From IMG/VR virus record IMGVR_UViG_3300039313_000010: DNA of 4,795 bases; one strand, written 5' to 3'. Numbering within the stretch: position 1 is the stretch's first letter; every line of letters begins with the position of its first letter. Source of the DNA: a virus (lineage: Duplodnaviria > Heunggongvirae > Uroviricota > Caudoviricetes). A program made the translations under genes and the position numbers. Of this stretch, positions 1 to 4,693 are shown piece by piece. The notes beneath the pieces were generated by a model, which saw nothing but the letters and a program-made list of their open reading frames with translations, did not search any database and had not been told where the DNA came from.

Positions 1-530
1 CTTGAGCCATCAGGCGCGTCAGCAGGAGCATCAATGGCATAGCGCGGTGCCAGATTCGGTAAGCCAACAGCCTCCTGGAGTTTCTGACAGGCACCAAGCA
101 CAGATGAGTTAGACAGGTTTAACTCCCGACGCATAAAGTCCAGCAGAATCACACCAGCCTGCATCTTGTCAGCAGCCTGTCCGGATAATTTTTCCGGTGC
201 GCTGGTTACCATGTCGAAAGTGCGGATCACCTTCAGATGGAATGACGGGCTGATCCACATTGCATAGGCATACACCAGTTCTTTGCAGACATACGTCCCC
301 TGGTTATTTCCGCCATTAATAACGCTAACTGGTTGATTCTTTTCCAGAGGCGGAATTCCACCCTCGGTGAAAAGTTGTTCAATCAGTTCACAGGTTTGCT
401 TATTGGAGAGCCAGTATTTCGGGCGGTTTTTTTGTTCTCCCCCGGCAGCCCGATGCAGATCGTTCAGGCTGTAACGCCCATAAGCATCACGACGAACTTC
501 AATACCATCAATGACCATCAGATTATTCAT
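1..530 (-). CDS. KilA-N domain protein (phage antirepressor-like); N-terminal 176 codons only, ORF runs off the window start
   Basis: Own minus-strand translation from ATG at 530-528 is open to position 1: MNNLMVIDGIEVRRDAYGRYSLNDLHRAAGGEQKNRPKYWLSNKQTCELIEQLFTEGGIPPLEKNQPVSVINGGNNQGTYVCKELVYAYAMWISPSFHLKVIRTFD... RBS-like AGAGGAG lies 7 nt upstream of the ATG, 17 nt after the rusA stop. Absent from the ORF track because there is no stop in the window. KilA-N assignment is from remembered family pattern, not a search. Confidence 0.7.
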   Translation of the reverse strand, partial: MNNLMVIDGIEVRRDAYGRYSLNDLHRAAGGEQKNRPKYWLSNKQTCELIEQLFTEGGIPPLEKNQPVSVINGGNNQGTYVCKELVYAYAMWISPSFHLKVIRTFDMVTSAPEKLSGQAADKMQAGVILLDFMRRELNLSNSSVLGACQKLQEAVGLPNLAPRYAIDAPADAPDGS

Positions 531-549
531 ACTTCGTTTCTCCTCTTGA

Positions 550-939
550 TCAGGCGGCTGCACCCGCCGTTTTCTCGTACTTACTGATAGTGATCTCGAC
601 CTTCCCTTCCGGGATAACCGGTCCCCACTCCACCAGCATTCTTTTCACCTGACTGTCGTCTTCCCACACACCCGCGTGGGTCAGGGCGTCAAACAGCGCC
701 TTGTTATAGTTGTCCAGATCGCGGATCCGGTTATCCGGTGGAAACAACACGATCTCCACTGCAGCAGGTGCCGACGTTGGTTTCGGCAGACGACGTAACT
801 GCTCAACTATTGCTGCGCACGCCGCGCTCTGGAATTTTCGCCCCGCCGTGCTTATCAGGCTCTTACCAGCAAACGCCCCTTTGTTGGGGTGTCGCCAGTA
901 CGTGTTCACGCTGGGCGGAAAAGGCAGAATAAGCTTCAT
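550..939 (-). CDS. rusA: Crossover junction endodeoxyribonuclease RusA (Holliday junction resolvase)
   Basis: 129-aa ORF with the motifs LPFPPSVNTYWRH, IRDLDNYNKALFDALTHAGVWEDDSQV and GKVEITI, which match E. coli RusA as I remember it. Its ATG (939-937) overlaps the upstream gene's TGA (938-936) as ATGA. Position among nin-like genes of a lambdoid prophage is typical. Confidence 0.9.
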   Translation of the reverse strand: MKLILPFPPSVNTYWRHPNKGAFAGKSLISTAGRKFQSAACAAIVEQLRRLPKPTSAPAAVEIVLFPPDNRIRDLDNYNKALFDALTHAGVWEDDSQVKRMLVEWGPVIPEGKVEITISKYEKTAGAAA

Positions 940-1262
940 ACTTTCAGGCCCCTCTCATGTAACCAGTGGGCTGCACGCAGCCTGGCGTTTTCCTCACCGG
1001 CAAGCAGTGAGCGGATAATCCCGACCGCCTCGCTGTCGTCGTCCTTCACCGCGGTATGAAGCGTTATCCCCCGGGCCACGCCACGCTTTATCGTGATGAC
1101 GCCTTTTTTCTCCAGAGCACGAAGATGCTCCACCGCTGCATTCACCGAACGGTATCCCAGCATGGTTGCCACCTCCTGATTGGTTGGTGGGAAGCCACGT
1201 TCTTTCTGATAAGAAATCAGCATATCCAGCACCTGCTGCTGGCATTGAGTTAACGTCGTCAT
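936..1262 (-). CDS. Stand-alone LexA-like N-terminal DNA-binding domain protein, 108 aa, no S24 peptidase domain
   Basis: MTTLTQCQQQVLDMLISYQKERGFPPTNQEVATMLGYRSVNAAVEHLRALEKKGVITIKRGVARGITL aligns along its length with the E. coli LexA N-terminal domain ([66 protein letters not shown], from memory). The ORF stops about 40 aa after the winged helix; no Ala-Gly cleavage site or Ser/Lys catalytic region follows. Start chosen at ATG 1262-1260, which overlaps the upstream stop as TAATG; the track's in-frame ATG at 1295 is the alternative. Confidence 0.75.
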   Translation of the reverse strand: MTTLTQCQQQVLDMLISYQKERGFPPTNQEVATMLGYRSVNAAVEHLRALEKKGVITIKRGVARGITLHTAVKDDDSEAVGIIRSLLAGEENARLRAAHWLHERGLKV

Positions 1263-1744
1263 TAAGCCCCCACGTAATTCCCTGACAGATACCACTCTTC
1301 ACCCGATGCAGCGCGCTTGCTGCTTTTCCGTAAGCACCGCTCACGACGCGCCAGAAAATTGTTTCGTTCTGGCTGGGAGTGGCTTTCACGGAATGCCGCC
1401 ATCCACACGGTTGCAGCACGACGAAATAAGCCCCTGGACTCCAGTTCTTCCGCCTGGCGGGCTAGGCACAAAATCACCCGCGGGTCGTTAGTGCCGACAT
1501 AGAAATTGCGCACAGGTCTGGTTTCACGAACTGGTTGTGGTTCCTGCGCTCTCTCAGTCAGGCGCGGGAAATGTCTGCGTGTATCTCCTTCACAACGGTG
1601 AGCCACACGCCCACTCTGACGTAACTTGCTTGCTGACTGCAGAACTCGCTGCCGTGAGTAACCAGCAAAAGCATCCGCAATGTCTCCGGAAGTACACCCC
1701 GGATGGGCTTCAATGAATTTCTGAACGTCATTTAACAGACTCAT
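1262..1744 (-). CDS. Hypothetical protein with N-terminal winged-helix-like region and C-terminal PerC-like motif
   Basis: ORF 1262..1750 in the track. Preferred start is ATG 1744-1742 (MSLLNDVQ...), preceded by AGGGGG with a 5-nt spacer; the GTG at 1750 overlapping the upstream TGA is the alternative. C-terminal segment LESRGLFRRAATVWMAAFRESHSQPERNNFLARRERCL resembles the PerC/Pch signature (G-x-W-R-R-A-A-x-x-W ... R-R-x-x-C) as I recall it. Family call is from memory. Confidence 0.6.
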   Translation of the reverse strand: MSLLNDVQKFIEAHPGCTSGDIADAFAGYSRQRVLQSASKLRQSGRVAHRCEGDTRRHFPRLTERAQEPQPVRETRPVRNFYVGTNDPRVILCLARQAEELESRGLFRRAATVWMAAFRESHSQPERNNFLARRERCLRKSSKRAASGEEWYLSGNYVGA

Positions 1745-1746
1745 GA

Positions 1747-2688
1747 TCACCCCCTGAATCCTGCCGGGATCTGGCTGTAGTCCACGTTGTCGTAACTGGC
1801 TTTGAAGTACGGGTCTTCACGTTTTTCTGTGTGCGTGCTGACGGACGGCGATAAGCGCAGGGAAAGCTCATCCCATTTTTCCCGCAACTTCGACGGGCTG
1901 AGCACGTTACGGCACCAGAACGGATCGCGGCTGACGCGGCTGTACATCTCGCAGATTTGTTTGTGAGTACGACCATCCTGCACACACATCAGGCGAATTT
2001 CGTTTGCCCAGGCTGTCCAGTTAGGTTCTTTGGGACGAACCACCTCGCCGTCACATTCGGCGGCCTGCTCGTACAGGGCGATGATTTTTTTCCAGAGCCA
2101 CTGTGCGCAGGTCAAATCATCCTGCGTTCCCCACTGGCGCTTTATAGGGCTGAATACAACCGCATCAGGATGGCGAGTTAAAAACTCCTGTTCAGCCGTC
2201 TGCGTGTCCGGTTGCGAAGCGTCCGGACGAGAAGGTTTTTTATCTGACGGATCATGTTTTGATTTTACTGACGGATCCCCGCCAGATTCTGACGGGTGAA
2301 AACCCGCTTTTTTGCCAGATTTCGACGCATCAAATTTTGACGGGTCAGATTTTGATGCGTCAGATTTTGACGGGTCAGAATCTGACAGTTGAGAAAATGC
2401 CGCTGCCTGAAGCTTCGCAACGTTAAGCTGATAAACATTCGACGCATTGCGGTTACCCTGGCGACGCGCCCTACGCGTTAACCAGCCTTCTGCTTCCAGC
2501 CGTGCGATAGCCGTTCTGACGGTACTCATCCCCGCGCCAATCTGGCGGGCAATGGTTTCAATTGATGGCCAGCACACACCTTCGTCATTACTGAAATCAG
2601 CCAGGCGGGCCATAATTGCCACGCTGGATAATTTCATGCCTGATGCAGCGCAACCATCCCATACATAGCCGGTTAATTTAGTGCTCAT
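1747..2688 (-). CDS. Phage replication initiation protein (lambda O-like): N-terminal HTH domain, iteron-encoded repeat linker, C-terminal domain
   Basis: 313-aa ORF with RBS GAGG 6 nt before ATG 2688. N-terminal segment (SSVAIMARLADFSNDEGVCWPSIETIARQIGAGMSTVRTAIARLEAEGWL) is HTH-like. The central peptide repeat SDPSK/SDASK/SDPSK/FDASK is encoded by 15-bp tandem DNA repeats, the same layout as the lambda O gene carrying ori-lambda iterons. Sits where O sits relative to cro and cII. Confidence 0.85.
   Translation of the reverse strand: MSTKLTGYVWDGCAASGMKLSSVAIMARLADFSNDEGVCWPSIETIARQIGAGMSTVRTAIARLEAEGWLTRRARRQGNRNASNVYQLNVAKLQAAAFSQLSDSDPSKSDASKSDPSKFDASKSGKKAGFHPSESGGDPSVKSKHDPSDKKPSRPDASQPDTQTAEQEFLTRHPDAVVFSPIKRQWGTQDDLTCAQWLWKKIIALYEQAAECDGEVVRPKEPNWTAWANEIRLMCVQDGRTHKQICEMYSRVSRDPFWCRNVLSPSKLREKWDELSLRLSPSVSTHTEKREDPYFKASYDNVDYSQIPAGFRG
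2242..2391. repeat. Iteron array, candidate phage replication origin inside the initiator gene
   Basis: Five exactly phased 15-bp units at 2317, 2332, 2347, 2362 and 2377 (agatttcgacgcatc / aaattttgacgggtc / agattttgatgcgtc / agattttgacgggtc / agaatctgacagttg), plus three degenerate copies at 2242-2298 containing tctgacgg or actgacgg. Each unit has a short GTCA...TGAC dyad. Moderately AT-rich flank at 2231-2270. Confidence 0.65.
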
Positions 2689-2697
2689 GACCGACCT

Positions 2698-3036
2698 CTA
2701 TTTCCCTGAATTTACGACGAAACTGTTCGAGCGGGCTGAAGCACTCATGCTCATAGCCTTCGCGGAGGTAGATAACACGTTGTGTTTCCGGTTCCCAACG
2801 AATGACTCTGACGGGCACTCCGTAGTGATCTTTGAACCAGCGGTTAACTTGTCGCAAAGGACTGTCTCCTTCTGCCGGTTGAAATCACCCACAGCCCACT
2901 CAGCAAAGCTGTGGGTTACAATTTCCCTGTCACCTGGTACATTCACTGCATAGCAATATTCCACCTTCGCTTTTCCACCCGGTACAGGAAGCGCAATCAG
3001 TTGCGAGCGACGGTAGTGTGTTGTTAAACTGTTCAT
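2698..3036 (-). CDS. Hypothetical protein, 112 aa, between the cII-position gene and the replication initiator
   Basis: ATG 3036-3034 overlaps the upstream TGA as ATGA; the stop at 2698-2700 lies 10 nt before the RBS and ATG of the initiator gene, so it fits the operon. No family recognised. A plus-strand ORF (2681..2953) is open antisense to it, so coding strand is not fully certain. Confidence 0.5.
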
Positions 3037-3590
3037 GCGTTAGTTTCTCCACAACCAGAAGCAATCGACGCCACGACGCCCGGAGCTGCACACTCGCGGG
3101 CGTCATTACTTTCTGAAACACAAAAGATTTTGTAGACCAGTGCTGCATGCTCCTGCAGCTTCGAAATTGAGAGGTACAGCTCGTCGTTAATTGCTGTCTT
3201 CTCATGCGGTTCCACTACACCGTCTTCGATTGCTGAACGAATCTGTTTTGAATAACTGCCGATCTGTTCAATGACTTCCAGCAGACGCTGGTTAATATCG
3301 GCGTTGTCCACATCCTCGACGTCAGGAAGAGACACAAATACGCCATTTGCAGACTGCGCCACAGCATCAGCAATGAAGTGAGTGCCACCAGCACGCTGTA
3401 AAACCATTGCCCATCCCAGCGGGAAAATCTGATCGCCATCGGCACGAAGGCGGTTAAATAATGCGTTCTCTGTTACGTCCAGCCAGTCAGCAGCTTCAGC
3501 GTACCCCCCCGGCAACGCTGCGATAGTTTTTCTGACAGCTTTCACGTACCACTCAGGCTGTTTTTCTATTTTCCAGTGATGCTTACCCAC
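3033..3590 (-). CDS. Early regulatory-region protein in the cII position (about 185 aa), function uncertain
   Basis: Track ORF 3033..3701. Start trimmed to GTG 3590-3588, which has a strong RBS (GAGGAG, 6-nt spacer) and begins 28 nt after the cro-like stop. The upstream ATGs at 3701 and 3668 have no RBS and would overlap the cro-like gene by 50-80 nt. Resemblance to YdaT-like prophage proteins is a guess from position only. Confidence 0.65.
3075..3115 (+). terminator. Candidate intrinsic terminator hairpin on the plus strand (possible oop-like antisense RNA 3' end)
   Basis: 8-bp GC-rich stem GACGCCCG (3075-3082) pairing with CGGGCGTC (3097-3104), 14-nt loop, then ATTACTTTCTG (6 of 11 T). Only the plus-strand transcript gets a U-rich tail. 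Lies inside the 3' part of the minus-strand cII-position gene. The T-tract is imperfect. Confidence 0.3.
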
Positions 3591-3618
3591 GGTTAACTCC
3601 TCGTTTCTGTGGTTACGT

Positions 3619-3882
3619 TTACGCAGCTGAACCGCTAACTTTTGAATAGCACTCAGGTAATCCATCATTTGGATTGGGGTAAATATCAGGACGCAGTTCA
3701 TGAGGGGTCACGGACCAGTTTCCCAACTCACAAAGTTGTAAAACCCGTTCTGACGGGACTTGATTGTTAATTACCCAATTAGCGACGGATTGAGTGGACT
3801 TAAAACCAAAGTGACGGGCTACTTCAGATAAAGATTTTCCCGCAGCTTTTACTGCTTTCTCTGTGTAGTTTTGAGATGACAT
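3619..3882 (-). CDS. Cro-like HTH DNA-binding protein (Cro/YdaS-type), first gene of the rightward-equivalent early operon
   Basis: 87-aa ORF with an HTH segment (KSLSEVARHFGFKSTQSVANWV) followed by VPSERVLQLCELGNWSVTPHELRPDIY. RBS GGAGAAAGG lies just upstream of ATG 3882. Divergent from the repressor gene. Confidence 0.8.
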   Translation of the reverse strand: MSSQNYTEKAVKAAGKSLSEVARHFGFKSTQSVANWVINNQVPSERVLQLCELGNWSVTPHELRPDIYPNPNDGLPECYSKVSGSAA

Positions 3883-3890
3883 ACCTTTCT

Positions 3891-3907
3891 CCTCTGAAAT
3901 TCAGAGG
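3891..3907. promoter_or_regulatory. Perfect 17-bp palindrome CCTCTGA-AAT-TCAGAGG overlapping the cro-like RBS
   Basis: 7-bp perfect inverted arms with a 3-bp spacer, read directly. Sequence differs from the other three sites, so it may bind a different protein or form an RNA hairpin in the cro-like 5' UTR. Confidence 0.4.
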
Positions 3908-3912
3908 GATGA

Positions 3913-3929
3913 TGCTACTTAAAATAGCA
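3913..3929. promoter_or_regulatory. Operator-like 17-bp dyad TGCTAC-TTAAA-ATAGCA
   Basis: 5-bp inverted arms TGCTA/TAGCA around cttaaaa. Shares CTAC at positions 3-6 and TAG at 13-15 with the sites at 3936 and 3981. Contains a -10-like hexamer. Confidence 0.45.
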
Positions 3930-3935
3930 GAATAC

Positions 3936-3952
3936 AACTACTTAAAATAGAA
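3936..3952. promoter_or_regulatory. Operator-like 17-bp site AACTACTTAAAATAGAA, weaker dyad
   Basis: Its 13-bp core CTACTTAAAATAG (3938-3950) is an exact direct repeat of 3915-3927, 23 bp away. Immediately precedes ATG 3953. Confidence 0.45.
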
Positions 3953-4693
3953 ATGACTAGCGTATGTGATGCGAGTAACCTTCTACCTATGGTAGAAGAA
4001 CAGAAGTATCCAGATTTCGCCAAGAGACTAAACGAGCTAATGACAAACAAGGGAATTTCTGTCACCCAACTCAAAAGTCTTGTGGGCGTTACATATGAAA
4101 TGGCGCGGCGATACACAATCGGCGCTGCGAAGCCTCGTGCCTCTGTCATGAATAAACTTGCATTGGCTCTGGGGGTATCAGCTTCATATTTAGAATATGG
4201 TGTTGGCGAGAGAGAAGGATGTAAGGAAATGGCAAGCATCCCCAATCCAACAAAACCCGATGTATACAGGATAGAAGTTTTGGATCTTAGCGTTAGCGCA
4301 GGACCTGGAACCTATATGCTTTCAGACTATGTTGATGTGCTCTACGCCATTGAGTTCACAACAGAGCATGCCCGTTCTCTTTTCGGTAATCGTTCTCAAG
4401 ATGATATTAAAGTTATGACTGTAAATGGCGACAGCATGTCCCCTACTCTAGTTTCCGGAGATCGACTGTTTGTCGACATTTCTGTTCGCAACTTCCAAAC
4501 TGATGGTGTTTACTCTTTCGTTTATGGTAAGACGTTCCACGTTAAACGTCTACAAATGCAAGGCAACAAACTCGCCGTTCTTTCGGATAATCCAGCCTAT
4601 GAGAAATGGTACATTGATGAGAAGTCCCAAGATCAACTTTATGTTATGGGCAAAGCATTGATACACGAATCAATTAAATACAACCGGCTTTAG
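3953..4693 (+). CDS. Phage cI-like repressor: N-terminal XRE-type HTH, C-terminal S24 (LexA/CI-type) self-cleaving peptidase domain
   Basis: 246-aa ORF. HTH segment FAKRLNELMTNKGISVTQLKSLVGVTYEMARRY. Candidate Ala-Gly cleavage site in LSVSAGPG. Catalytic Ser motif in MTVNGDSMSPTLVSGDRLFVD and Lys motif in FHVKRLQMQGNKLAVL. No RBS before ATG 3953, which fits a leaderless PRM-type transcript; ATG 3989 (MVEEQKYPDF...) is the alternative start. Confidence 0.9.
   Translation: MTSVCDASNLLPMVEEQKYPDFAKRLNELMTNKGISVTQLKSLVGVTYEMARRYTIGAAKPRASVMNKLALALGVSASYLEYGVGEREGCKEMASIPNPTKPDVYRIEVLDLSVSAGPGTYMLSDYVDVLYAIEFTTEHARSLFGNRSQDDIKVMTVNGDSMSPTLVSGDRLFVDISVRNFQTDGVYSFVYGKTFHVKRLQMQGNKLAVLSDNPAYEKWYIDEKSQDQLYVMGKALIHESIKYNRL
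3981..3997. promoter_or_regulatory. Perfect 17-bp palindrome TTCTACC-TAT-GGTAGAA centred on the in-frame ATG 3989 of the repressor gene
   Basis: 7-bp perfect inverted arms, read directly. Shares the CTAC...TAG half-sites with the two intergenic sites. Its centre is 45 bp from the centre of the 3936-3952 site. Confidence 0.4.

What the first reader, a model, noticed from the sequence alone, without database searches (positions are those of the whole stretch)
3001..3115. Candidate oop-like antisense small RNA opposite the 3' end of the cII-position gene
On the plus strand a possible promoter TTGCGA(3001-3006)-18-TAAACT(3025-3030) would start a transcript near 3037-3039, ending at the hairpin and T-rich tail at 3075-3115. 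That gives roughly 75 nt, fully antisense to the last codons of the cII-position gene. Lambda has the same arrangement: the roughly 77-nt oop RNA overlaps the cII 3' end and drives its decay. Promoter and terminator are both only moderately good, so this is a hypothesis.
Basis: inference. Interest (0 to 1): 0.45.

Follow-up and report, generated by a model that had tools for sequence, protein, structure and literature searches.

The report
Prophage antisense small RNA (ECS003)
The predicted small RNA is real: a roughly 71-base antisense RNA of an e14-like prophage, already detected in E. coli K-12 in 2011 as ECS003, built and placed like phage lambda's OOP RNA but unrelated to it in sequence, and still without a tested function.

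Summary
Confirmed, and already known as an entity. Window 2960-3115 is identical to the e14 prophage of E. coli K-12. Published data there show the predicted transcript: ECS003 (Shinhara 2011) with a mapped start at window G3037 and a ~70-nt Northern band, and a very strong Term-seq 3' end at window 3107 (Adams 2021). The RNA is 3037-3107 (+), antisense to the last 24 codons of ymfL.

ymfL is a phage-186-type CII homolog (Pfam PF06892), not a lambda-type CII. By sequence alone the promoter is at chance level. Comparison rescues it: in about 60 Enterobacterales species, TTG of the -35 and TAnnnT of the -10 are invariant while flanks vary. The two-hairpin fold is kept by compensatory changes.

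It is an analog of lambda OOP, not a homolog. The overlap with the CII-like gene shrinks to about 11 nt in some lineages. What never varies is coverage of the Shine-Dalgarno region of the next gene: ymfM (the SfiC division inhibitor) or an antirepressor.

Most likely it silences that junction of the early operon by pairing. This is inferred, not tested. No Rfam family or RefSeq annotation exists.

The parts
3001..3006 (+). -35 hexamer TTGCGA of the sRNA promoter. It lies inside codons 11-12 of ymfM on the other strand.
   Evidence: Sequence. In 58 distinct sequences found without using the promoter as a search criterion, TTG is 100% and C 97% conserved, and the 18-nt spacing is constant.
3022..3030 (+). 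Extended -10: TG-n-TAAACT, with the hexamer at 3025-3030. It lies inside codons 3-5 of ymfM.
   Evidence: Sequence. T-12, A-11 and T-7 are invariant and A-9 is 97% conserved, while the other hexamer positions and the encoded amino acids vary: TAAACT, TACACT, TACAAT, TAAATT, TAATAT, TAGAAT, TAAAAT. The TG is present in only about a quarter of relatives.
3037..3107 (+). Mature sRNA, 71 nt (ECS003 of K-12 e14).
   Evidence: An experimental TSS lies 3 nt into the ECS003 read block, at 3037. The Term-seq 3' end 1203751(-) maps to 3107. The Northern band is ~70 nt. The covariance model hits 3037-3113 at 82.6 bits, though the window was in the seed alignment.
3037..3071 (+). 5' stem-loop that starts at nucleotide 1. 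The basal helix pairs 3037-3041 with 3067-3071 and the upper helix pairs 3043-3048 with 3057-3062. The anti-Shine-Dalgarno CUCC (3047-3050) sits at its tip.
   Evidence: MFE fold. The basal helix is kept in relatives at 96.9% of cells paired; the fourth pair is UA in 33, AU in 18 and UG in 14 sequences. The apical part varies in length and sequence.
3075..3104 (+). Terminator hairpin: GACGCCCG-GAG, loop CUGCACA, CUC-(G)-CGGGCGUC.
   Evidence: Fold. RNAalifold predicts 10 pairs with none broken in 54 sequences. In the model-based alignment 99.7% of cells are paired and 5 pairs change on both sides. The helix has 30 G-U against 1 A-C cells, so the plus strand is the folded one.
3105..3115 (+). 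Weak U-rich tail AUUACUUUCUG. The observed 3' end is at 3107.
   Evidence: Relatives mostly have better tails, such as CACUCUUUUC and CACUUCUUUUU.
3108..3442 (+). Read-through extension. A minor longer form reaches about 3149 and a Rho termination region lies near 3442.
   Evidence: The ECS003 116-nt read block and the faint ~120-nt band. A Rho termination region at 1203416(-), antisense to ymfL, maps to window 3442.
3033..3590 (-). ymfL, the CII-position gene: 185 aa by PGAP, with the longest ORF running to 3701. It is a phage-186-type CII homolog. Its last 24 codons are opposite the sRNA.
   Evidence: Annotation. Pfam PF06892 Phage_CP76, E = 2e-13, with the domain ending before the sRNA-overlapped tail.
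2698..3036 (-). ymfM (112 aa), annotated as a cell division inhibitor (SfiC). Its ATG (3036-3034) overlaps the ymfL stop as ATGA. Its SD, GGAG (3050-3047), and the whole -1 to -71 leader are complementary to the sRNA. Its first 12 codons carry the sRNA promoter.
   Evidence: ORF list, NC_000913.3 annotation, and the filamentation data of bioRxiv 10.1101/2020.11.19.390815.

Best explanation
Window 3037-3107 (+) encodes a real, abundant, constitutively made 71-nt cis-antisense small RNA. It is known as ECS003 in K-12 e14 and is probably STnc1300 in Salmonella ST64B.

Anatomy. It is transcribed from a sigma-70 promoter buried in the first 12 codons of the gene that follows the CII-like gene. It runs convergent to the early (pR-type) operon and ends at an intrinsic terminator hairpin. 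It folds into a 5' stem-loop beginning at nucleotide 1 plus the terminator stem-loop, the same two-hairpin plan as lambda OOP.

Proposed mechanism (inferred). The RNA pairs perfectly with the early-operon mRNA across the ymfL-ymfM junction. The duplex covers positions -1 to -71 of ymfM, including its Shine-Dalgarno sequence, and the last 24 codons of ymfL. It should block 30S binding at ymfM. As with OOP, it should also be a substrate for RNase III, uncoupling and destabilising the flanking cistrons.

Proposed role (inferred). In a lysogen it is a second lock, besides the CohE repressor, on leaky expression of the SOS-inducible division inhibitor YmfM. In relatives the locked gene is an antirepressor. 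During infection or induction it would also trim the level of the CII-like regulator.

Shown versus inferred. Shown: the RNA, its ends, abundance, constitutive and Hfq-independent level, promoter conservation, the fold, and complementarity. Inferred: every regulatory consequence. The confidence of 0.55 is for the regulatory model; existence of the RNA with these ends is about 0.97.
For: Existence and ends:
- ECS003 sequence, TSS, Northern band, and an unchanged level across growth conditions and in an hfq knockout (PMC3175480).
- Term-seq 3' end at window 3107 with 14-28 million reads (PMC7815308).
- Identity of window and K-12 over the promoter and RNA.

Selection on the promoter at the DNA level. 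A genome scan whose pattern did not include the promoter gave about 60 Enterobacterales species. All carry TTG(C)-N20-TAnnnT at fixed distance; 12 chance hits in other phyla do not. The invariant T-12 is a third codon position and the Gln codon is always CAA. The encoded residues vary (S/I/N, L/V), the reverse of what protein-level constraint would give.

Selection on the RNA fold:
- 98.9% of cells are paired, against 31-53% when partners are slid.
- The covariation score is 0.274, against at most 0.079 when slid.
- Six pairs show double changes, and 0 of 500 shuffles reach the observed values.
- There are 53 G-U against 8 A-C cells, so the plus strand is the folded one.

Conservation is not due to coding. 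In Klebsiella- and mEp390-type relatives the CII-like ORF stops at +60 to +63, so the same hairpins lie in an intergenic spacer.

The invariant target feature is the next gene's leader. CAT abuts the TSS and the anti-SD CUCC sits at the tip of the 5' hairpin in all 19 BLAST-derived relatives, and in every scan-derived one by construction of the patterns. This holds whether the next gene is YmfM-like or Rha/antirepressor-like.

ymfM is toxic (it blocks Z-ring formation) and SOS-inducible, so a constitutive silencer makes biological sense.

Precedents: OOP/cII, P22 sar/ant and SymR/symE.
Against: - No functional experiment exists. Shinhara et al. only suggested RBS masking.
- In K-12 lysogens the target operon is repressed, so abundance of the RNA says nothing about its effect.
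- The ymfL stop and ymfM start overlap (ATGA). ymfM may therefore be translated by coupling from ribosomes that would strip the sRNA off.
- The weak U tail lets some transcription run about 335 nt further into ymfL, which could matter more than the short RNA.
- The long near-identical blocks could owe something to frequent recombination at a mosaic joint rather than to selection alone.
- The invariance of the terminator loop CUGCA is not explained by simple cis-pairing.
- Whether YmfM or the overlapping DUF4222 product is the active protein is not settled.
Confidence: 0.55

Rival explanations
1. Strict OOP equivalent. The only relevant target is the CII-like (YmfL) message. Pairing at its 3' end triggers RNase III cleavage and 3'-to-5' decay, lowering CII-like protein and favouring lytic growth. 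On this reading the overlap with the next gene's RBS is incidental.
For: The position, size and two-hairpin plan match lambda OOP: 77 nt and -28.5 kcal/mol against 71 nt and -28.7 kcal/mol. In the window all 71 nt lie opposite ymfL codons. The RNA always accompanies a PF06892 CII-type gene. Even in lambda the RNase III cut lies outside cII, 12 nt downstream, so a small ORF overlap does not exclude this reading.
Against: In about a quarter of the gene contexts the overlap with the CII-like ORF is only about 11 nt. The TSS always abuts the next gene's ATG and the anti-SD is always present, whereas lambda OOP stops short of the O gene's SD. There is no LexA box as there is in lambda pO.
Confidence: 0.15
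2. The promoter matters and the RNA is a by-product. RNA polymerase bound at, or firing from, the convergent promoter interferes with early-operon transcription into ymfM and the replication genes. Alternatively it modulates transcriptional activation of the nearby origin, as proposed for lambda pO.
For: The promoter core is the most invariant element. It sits head-on to the early operon, about 650 bp upstream (in early-operon direction) of the iterons at ~2313-2387. A pO/pR interplay in lambda replication is described in PMC3985674, which I saw by title and abstract only.
Against: It does not explain why both RNA helices are maintained by compensatory and strand-specific G-U changes. It also does not explain why the RNA accumulates to very high levels.
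Confidence: 0.1
3. A trans-acting regulator. The abundant RNA pairs through its conserved single-stranded parts (anti-SD loop, CGCCAC linker, CUGCA loop) with host mRNAs. Alternatively it pairs with the homologous junction of other resident or incoming phages, giving cross-talk between prophages.
For: The loop and linker are invariant even where non-coding. E. coli genomes carry up to 4 copies of the family, with identical 16-nt and ~38-nt blocks. The level is very high and constitutive in a cryptic prophage.
Against: No target is known. The RNA level is Hfq-independent, which is unusual for trans-acting enterobacterial sRNAs. Conservation of the blocks also follows from the cis functions (promoter, SD, terminator).
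Confidence: 0.1
4. Non-functional pervasive antisense transcription from a fortuitous promoter, stabilised by a hairpin that exists for other reasons.
For: The promoter matches consensus at only 8 of 12 positions, a chance-level match, and no phenotype is known.
Against: The critical promoter positions are invariant across about 55 species against the grain of codon usage. The helices covary. The RNA is abundant. The hairpins are retained where they are non-coding.
Confidence: 0.03

Closest known systems
ECS003, cis-antisense sRNA candidate of the E. coli K-12 e14 prophage (Shinhara et al. 2011, BMC Genomics 12:428)
   Same: It is the same RNA. The sequence is identical over the promoter and 3034-3115, with the same strand, TSS and ~70-nt size. 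The authors already suggested that it masks the ymfM RBS.
   Different: Nothing in the RNA itself differs. The window comes from a relative of e14 with a different repressor/cro module and an intact replication module. The family-wide conservation, the fold, the embedded promoter and the OOP analogy were not described there.
Lambda OOP RNA (77 nt, pO-oop-tO)
   Same: Both are short constitutive transcripts convergent with the pR operon. In both the promoter overlaps the start of the gene after cII, the body crosses the junction, and the 3' part overlaps the cII 3' end (52 nt in lambda). Both have two hairpins of almost equal stability and an intrinsic terminator.
   Different: There is no detectable homology. 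The partner gene is a 186-type CII (PF06892), not lambda CII. The next gene is ymfM or an antirepressor, not the replication gene O. The 5' end covers the next gene's SD, whereas OOP stops just short of O's SD. There is no LexA box. The U tail is weaker. The overlap with CII is variable across the family.
STnc1300, an unstudied ncRNA in Salmonella prophage ST64B
   Same: It is annotated at D23580 2097213-2097351. That interval spans the ymfL-like/antirepressor junction at 2097281-2097284, and its right end falls within a few nt of the predicted 3' end of the ST64B family member (L015 938-1008). It is on the plus strand in strain 14028 and is expressed at 150-4400 TPM in all 17 conditions.
   Different: It is annotated as 139 nt, about 70 nt longer on the 5' side. 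I could not verify sequence or strand against D23580 itself, so the equivalence is probable, not shown.
P22 sar RNA and E. coli SymR (cis-antisense RNAs that cover the RBS of an antirepressor or of an SOS-induced toxin)
   Same: On the RBS-masking reading this is the nearest mechanism. Each is a small constitutive antisense RNA whose promoter lies just inside the target gene and whose body covers its translation-initiation region. The review PMC5415839 states the roles: sar inhibits anti-repression, and SymR represses the SOS-induced symE. The architectural details are from my memory of Liao/Wu/Susskind 1987 and Kawano/Storz 2007.
   Different: There is no sequence relationship; Rfam finds nothing here. 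Here the RNA also overlaps the upstream CII-like gene, and the target YmfM is a 112-aa division inhibitor.
Phage 186 early operon: apl-cII-fil-dhr
   Same: The gene order is the same: a CP76-type CII followed directly by a cell-division inhibitor (fil in 186, ymfM here).
   Different: The covariance model finds no counterpart of the sRNA at the 186 cII-fil junction.

Membership tests
ECS003 / this enterobacterial prophage sRNA family (no Rfam accession) | Sequence identity with the published ECS003 RNA and its promoter. | tested here: met
   100% identity over window 3034-3115 against K-12. The promoter block is identical.
ECS003 / this enterobacterial prophage sRNA family (no Rfam accession) | Two-helix fold (a 5' stem from nucleotide 1 plus a terminator) supported by covariation. 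| tested here: met
ECS003 / this enterobacterial prophage sRNA family (no Rfam accession) | Location downstream of a PF06892 CII-type gene, with the TSS abutting the start codon of the next gene. | tested here: met
Lambda OOP RNA | Short (~77 nt) transcript with its own constitutive promoter and an intrinsic terminator, convergent with the pR operon. | tested here: met
   71 nt, with ends. The level is unchanged across conditions.
Lambda OOP RNA | [quoted passage not shown] | tested here: met
   In the window it is opposite the last 24 codons of ymfL. Across the family the overlap ranges from 72 nt down to about 11 nt.
Lambda OOP RNA | Sequence or structure homology with lambda oop. | tested here: not met
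   The covariance model R1 gives no hit on the lambda locus at E <= 0.001. The best hit with filters off is 6.6 bits, E = 1.3. The local alignment score is at chance, p ~ 0.3.
Lambda OOP RNA | The partner is a lambda-type CII protein. | tested here: not met
   A Pfam scan of YmfL and six relatives returns only PF06892 Phage_CP76, the 186-type CII.
Lambda OOP RNA | A LexA-binding sequence in the promoter region (reported for pO). | tested here: not met
   No CTG-N10-CAG and no near-consensus SOS box lies at 2990-3045. The lambda feature is as cited.
Lambda OOP RNA | RNase III-dependent cleavage of the RNA-mRNA duplex and lowered CII activity. | not testable with these tools
   This needs rnc+/rnc- end mapping and reporter or lysogeny assays.
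Type I toxin-antitoxin (antisense RNA antitoxin) | A cis-encoded antisense RNA covering the translation-initiation region of a toxic protein's mRNA. | tested here: met
   The RNA is complementary to ymfM positions -1 to -71, including GGAG at 3050-3047. ymfM expression blocks division.
Type I toxin-antitoxin (antisense RNA antitoxin) | The toxin is a small (usually under 60 aa) hydrophobic membrane peptide. | tested here: not met
   YmfM is 112 aa and reads as hydrophilic. It is reported to prevent Z-ring formation.
Type I toxin-antitoxin (antisense RNA antitoxin) | An unstable antitoxin RNA against a stable toxin mRNA, giving post-segregational or stress-triggered killing. | not testable with these tools
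   Half-lives are unknown. The very high steady-state level suggests a stable RNA, which would argue against this feature.
Any Rfam 15 family | A match to a curated covariance model. | tested here: not met
   Nothing matches at 3000-3150 up to E = 10 in the window. Nothing matches at the homologous site of four relatives up to E = 1.

The most novel reading that the evidence does not exclude
ECS003 is the founding member of a widespread, unannotated family of Enterobacterales prophage sRNAs. The family forms a portable 'junction lock': its promoter is written into the first 12 codons of whatever gene follows a 186-type cII. That gene may be the SfiC/YmfM division inhibitor or an antirepressor module that itself carries C4/IsrK RNAs. 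The RNA silences that gene in an antitoxin-like manner. Because long blocks are identical between heteroimmune phages, the abundant RNA of a cryptic prophage such as e14 would also act in trans on related incoming or co-resident phages. That would bias their lysis-lysogeny choice or block their antirepressors.
Probability: 0.25. Interest if true: 0.55.

Novelty: already known. Interest (0 to 1): 0.33.

Why it matters
The RNA is present in about half of complete E. coli genomes: 2732 of 5426, with up to four copies each. It also occurs in about 55 other Enterobacterales species. In K-12 it is one of the most abundant 3' ends. Yet it has no gene name, no Rfam family, no RefSeq feature and no tested function.

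It sits directly on the start of ymfM, the SOS-inducible SfiC division inhibitor. A second, RNA-level control of SfiC is therefore directly testable with one silent point mutation.

It also shows that the OOP layout has arisen, or been retained beyond recognisable homology, next to a different CII family. That bears on how general antisense control of the lysis-lysogeny junction is.

For annotation, the covariation-supported alignment made here could seed an RNA family.

Tried and rejected
- Consensus scans for promoters and terminators found neither element. Sequence-only statistics therefore could not decide the matter.
- Rfam gave no family in the window or in four relatives. The mir-5880 hit at 2313-2387 is an artefact of the origin iterons.
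- Homology to lambda oop was rejected.
- A counterpart in phage 186, the type phage of the CII family, was not found.
- No LexA box lies at the promoter. The CTG-N10-CAG at 3143-3158 lies downstream of the mature RNA and is G+C-rich in the centre.
- RNAalifold on the plain MAFFT alignment recovered only the terminator, because indels put the 5' helix out of register. I added the 5' basal helix by hand, built a covariance model and re-aligned. That alignment leans toward the given structure, so I relied on the slid-partner control and the G-U/A-C asymmetry.
- I considered explaining the conservation by the YmfL C-terminal tail. I rejected this because the same hairpins are intergenic in Klebsiella- and mEp390-type phages, and because the tails differ in sequence following the RNA's compensatory changes.
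- A literature follow-up of ECS003, and of ymfL or e14 with antisense RNA, found no functional study.
- The dRNA-seq paper of Thomason et al. 2015 is not held.
Full report
CONTEXT. The window is the immunity-replication region of an e14-like lambdoid prophage, read in reverse of the usual map. It is 100% identical over 1151 nt to E. coli CFS3273 and about 97% identical to K-12 e14. The genes, on the minus strand unless stated, are:
- cI-like repressor, 3953-4693 (+);
- cro-like gene, 3619-3882;
- ymfL, 3033-3590;
- ymfM, 2698-3036;
- a DUF4222 gene, 2678-2857;
- an O-like initiator with internal iterons, 1747-2688;
- then PerC-like, LexA-like and RusA genes.
YmfL carries Pfam PF06892 (Phage_CP76), the phage-186 type of CII. 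The 'cII-position gene' is therefore a CII, but not of the lambda family.

THE OBSERVATION. On sequence statistics alone they are unremarkable.
- The promoter matches consensus at 8 of 12 positions with an 18-nt spacer, plus an extended -10 TG. The 9/12 scan misses it.
- It is one of 16 equally good sites in the window, against 17.2 +/- 4.3 in shuffles.
- The bulged hairpin also escapes the terminator scan.
- The predicted transcript does fold unusually well: two hairpins, -28.7 kcal/mol, z = -4.37.

PUBLISHED EXPERIMENTS ON THE IDENTICAL SEQUENCE. K-12 e14 is identical to the window across the promoter and 3034-3115.

Shinhara et al. 2011 (PMC3175480) sequenced RNAs under 200 nt and listed ECS003.
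- It is the third most abundant of 229 new candidates.
- It is cis-antisense to ymfL and ymfM, and its printed sequence equals window 3034-3149.
- It is 'class A': it has both a predicted sigma-70 promoter and an experimentally determined TSS 3 nt inside the block, at window G3037.
- The dense part of the reads is 78 nt. The Northern band is ~70 nt, with a faint ~120-nt band.
- The level did not change with medium, growth phase, heat or cold shock, or in an hfq knockout.

Adams et al. 2021 (PMC7815308) list a Term-seq 3' end at MG1655 1203751(-), classed as antisense to ymfL. The two rows shown to me (of three ymfL occurrences in a three-condition table) give counts of 14.5 and 28.0 million, higher than the tRNA and sRNA ends in the parts of the table I read. 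The MG1655 annotation places the ymfM ATG at 1203822-1203824, so this 3' end is window 3107, three bases past the stem. A Rho termination region at 1203416(-), window 3442, catches read-through.

The RNA is thus 3037-3107, 71 nt.

COMPARATIVE EVIDENCE. The RNA is selected, not noise.

Distribution:
- BLAST finds the 141-nt block in 88 phage records of Escherichia, Shigella, Salmonella, Klebsiella and Citrobacter at 75-99% identity.
- It occurs in 2732 of 5426 complete E. coli genomes.
- A scan of one genome per species used a pattern that specified only CATGCG, CTCCA and the 5' arm and loop of the terminator. It returned about 60 Enterobacterales contigs and 12 chance hits in other phyla.

Every true hit, and none of the chance hits, has the rest of the element.

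In 58 distinct sequences, TTG of the -35 and T-12, A-11 and T-7 of the -10 are invariant. C of TTGC and A-9 are 97% conserved. The spacer length is fixed. The spacer sequence, the other hexamer positions and the flanks vary.

These positions are read on the other strand as codons 3-4 and 12 of the downstream gene. The invariant T-12 is a third codon position, and the Gln codon is always CAA and never CAG. Meanwhile the amino acids change (Ser/Ile/Asn, Leu/Val). That is the signature of selection on a promoter, not on a peptide.

THE FOLD. RNAalifold on 54 distinct relatives predicts the 10-pair terminator with no broken pair and four pairs with compensatory double changes. I then built a covariance model that adds the 5' basal helix and re-aligned 84 hits, of which 73 are distinct.
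- 98.9% of cells pair, against 31-53% when the 3' partners are slid by 1-3 columns.
- The covariation score is 0.274, against at most 0.079 when slid.
- Six pairs change on both sides.
- No shuffle out of 500 reaches the observed pairing or covariation.
- Wobble pairs are strand-specific: 53 G-U against 8 A-C cells overall, and 30 against 1 in the terminator. The folded, selected molecule is therefore the plus-strand RNA, not the mRNA.

The 5' helix begins at nucleotide 1, an arrangement expected to protect against 5'-end-dependent decay and consistent with the high abundance. That last point is inference.

WHAT IT IS ANTISENSE TO. I located the flanking ORFs in 85 distinct contexts. The CII-like ORF (PF06892 in all seven proteins tested) ends at different places relative to the TSS.
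- At -4, with an ATGA overlap onto the next gene, as in the window.
- At +3 to +17.
- At +60 to +63 in Klebsiella- and mEp390-type phages. There the protein ends ...SRKKK opposite the U tail, and the whole RNA body lies in an intergenic spacer.

Conservation of the hairpins is therefore not a by-product of the YmfL tail. The tail lies outside the Pfam domain and varies following the RNA's compensatory changes ([30 protein letters not shown]).

In contrast, the TSS always abuts the start codon of the next gene, and the RNA always contains the complement of that gene's Shine-Dalgarno sequence at the tip of the 5' hairpin. This holds whether the gene is YmfM-like (108-120 aa) or a ~380-aa Rha/antirepressor type. 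The two kinds of downstream gene share only their first ~12 codons, which are the promoter. The promoter thus travels with the cII-sRNA module and marks a mosaic joint.

MECHANISM. Shown: the RNA, its ends, its abundance and its perfect complementarity to positions -1 to -71 of ymfM and the last 24 codons of ymfL. Inferred: the duplex occludes the ymfM ribosome-binding site and, as for OOP, is cut by RNase III, lowering expression of both cistrons.

ymfM is annotated as the SfiC cell-division inhibitor. It is SOS-inducible, and its induced expression abolishes Z rings (annotation). A constitutive silencer of leaky transcripts in lysogens is plausible. Shinhara et al. already suggested RBS masking. 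I give this junction-silencing model 0.55. Within that figure, existence of the RNA is about 0.97 and any regulatory effect is untested.

The rivals are: a strict OOP role on the CII-like message only (0.15); promoter interference or a replication role with the RNA as by-product (0.10); trans action on host or other prophage RNAs (0.10); and noise (0.03).

Points against the favoured model:
- possible translational coupling through ATGA;
- read-through transcription;
- the unexplained invariance of the terminator loop CUGCA;
- uncertainty over whether YmfM or the overlapping DUF4222 product is the active protein.

COMPARISON WITH KNOWN SYSTEMS. What it works like: lambda OOP in layout, size, two hairpins and convergence on the cII/next-gene junction. 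For the RBS coverage it resembles P22 sar and E. coli SymR (plus my own recollection of the primary papers).

Whether it is a member of the OOP family: no.
- The covariance model does not find lambda oop.
- Local alignment is at chance.
- The partner CII belongs to another family.
- The next gene is not the replication initiator.
- The 5' end reaches 10 nt closer to the next start codon than OOP does.
- There is no LexA box.

Phage 186, the type phage of this CII family, has the same cII-then-division-inhibitor order (cII-fil) but no counterpart of the RNA.

In Salmonella ST64B an annotated but unstudied ncRNA, STnc1300, spans the same junction and ends where the family member is predicted to end. 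It is probably the ortholog.

NOVELTY AND SCORE. The RNA itself and the antisense idea have been in print since 2011, so the finding is 'already known'.
- exact ends on the window;
- the promoter-in-codons conservation;
- a covariation-supported fold;
- the breadth of the family;
- the variable overlap with CII against the constant overlap with the next gene's RBS;
- the conclusion that it is an OOP analog rather than a homolog.

It remains unnamed, absent from Rfam and from RefSeq annotation, and functionally untested. Interest is modest at 0.33. A specialist would not be surprised by an OOP-like RNA in a lambdoid prophage. The link to SfiC control and possible prophage cross-talk is cheap to test, however.

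Noticed in passing
window 2678-3036 (minus strand): The ymfM ORF (2698-3036, 112 aa, no Pfam hit) overlaps a DUF4222 ORF (2678-2857, 59 aa, PF13973, E = 8.6e-19) out of frame for 160 nt. PGAP annotates DUF4222 and not ymfM in most genomes, whereas NC_000913.3 annotates ymfM as the cell division inhibitor. The C-terminal halves of YmfM-like proteins are Ser/Thr/Ala-rich and may be shaped by the other frame. Which product causes SfiC filamentation deserves a frameshift or stop-codon test.
   Followed up: partly
L015 (Salmonella phage ST64B) 395-583, minus strand, inside the Rha/antirepressor-type ORF that replaces ymfM: Rfam finds a C4 antisense RNA (RF01695, 79.7 bits) and isrK (RF01394, 64.3 bits) on the sense strand. 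In these relatives the sRNA promoter is therefore followed by a P1 immI-like antirepressor module with its own RNA control. This probably explains the very high lysogen TPM reported for STMMW_20221.
   Followed up: partly
L217 (phage 186) 1436-2180: Phage 186 cII (the CP76 type protein) is followed directly by fil, a cell-division inhibitor. This is the same order as ymfL-ymfM in e14-like prophages, but without the antisense RNA.
   Followed up: yes
window 3086-3090 and 3071-3074: The terminator loop CUGCA is invariant in 54 of 54 distinct relatives and the CGCC(A) linker nearly so, including lineages where they are non-coding. Terminator loops normally drift. A kissing-loop contact, a protein site or a DNA-level site are all possible.
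   Followed up: no
window 3915-3927 and 3938-3950: The 13-bp sequence CTACTTAAAATAG occurs twice in the 70-bp divergent region between the cro-like and cI-like genes. These are probably operator sites of this immunity type.
   Followed up: no
window 2313-2387: Repeats of the TCAGATTTTGACGGG type lie inside the O-like initiator gene, probably origin iterons placed as in lambda. They produce a spurious mir-5880 Rfam hit (30.7 bits, far below the gathering score of 97).
   Followed up: partly
window 3590-3701: The longest ymfL ORF (222 aa, ATG at 3701) overlaps the cro-like gene by 83 nt. PGAP starts ymfL at GTG 3590 (185 aa). Relatives also differ widely in apparent N-terminal length (150-250 aa), so the true start is uncertain.
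   Followed up: no
window 3143-3158: The palindrome CTGCATGCTCCTGCAG lies where the minor ~116-120-nt form of ECS003 ends (read block to 3149). It might be a secondary pause or processing site for read-through transcripts.
   Followed up: no
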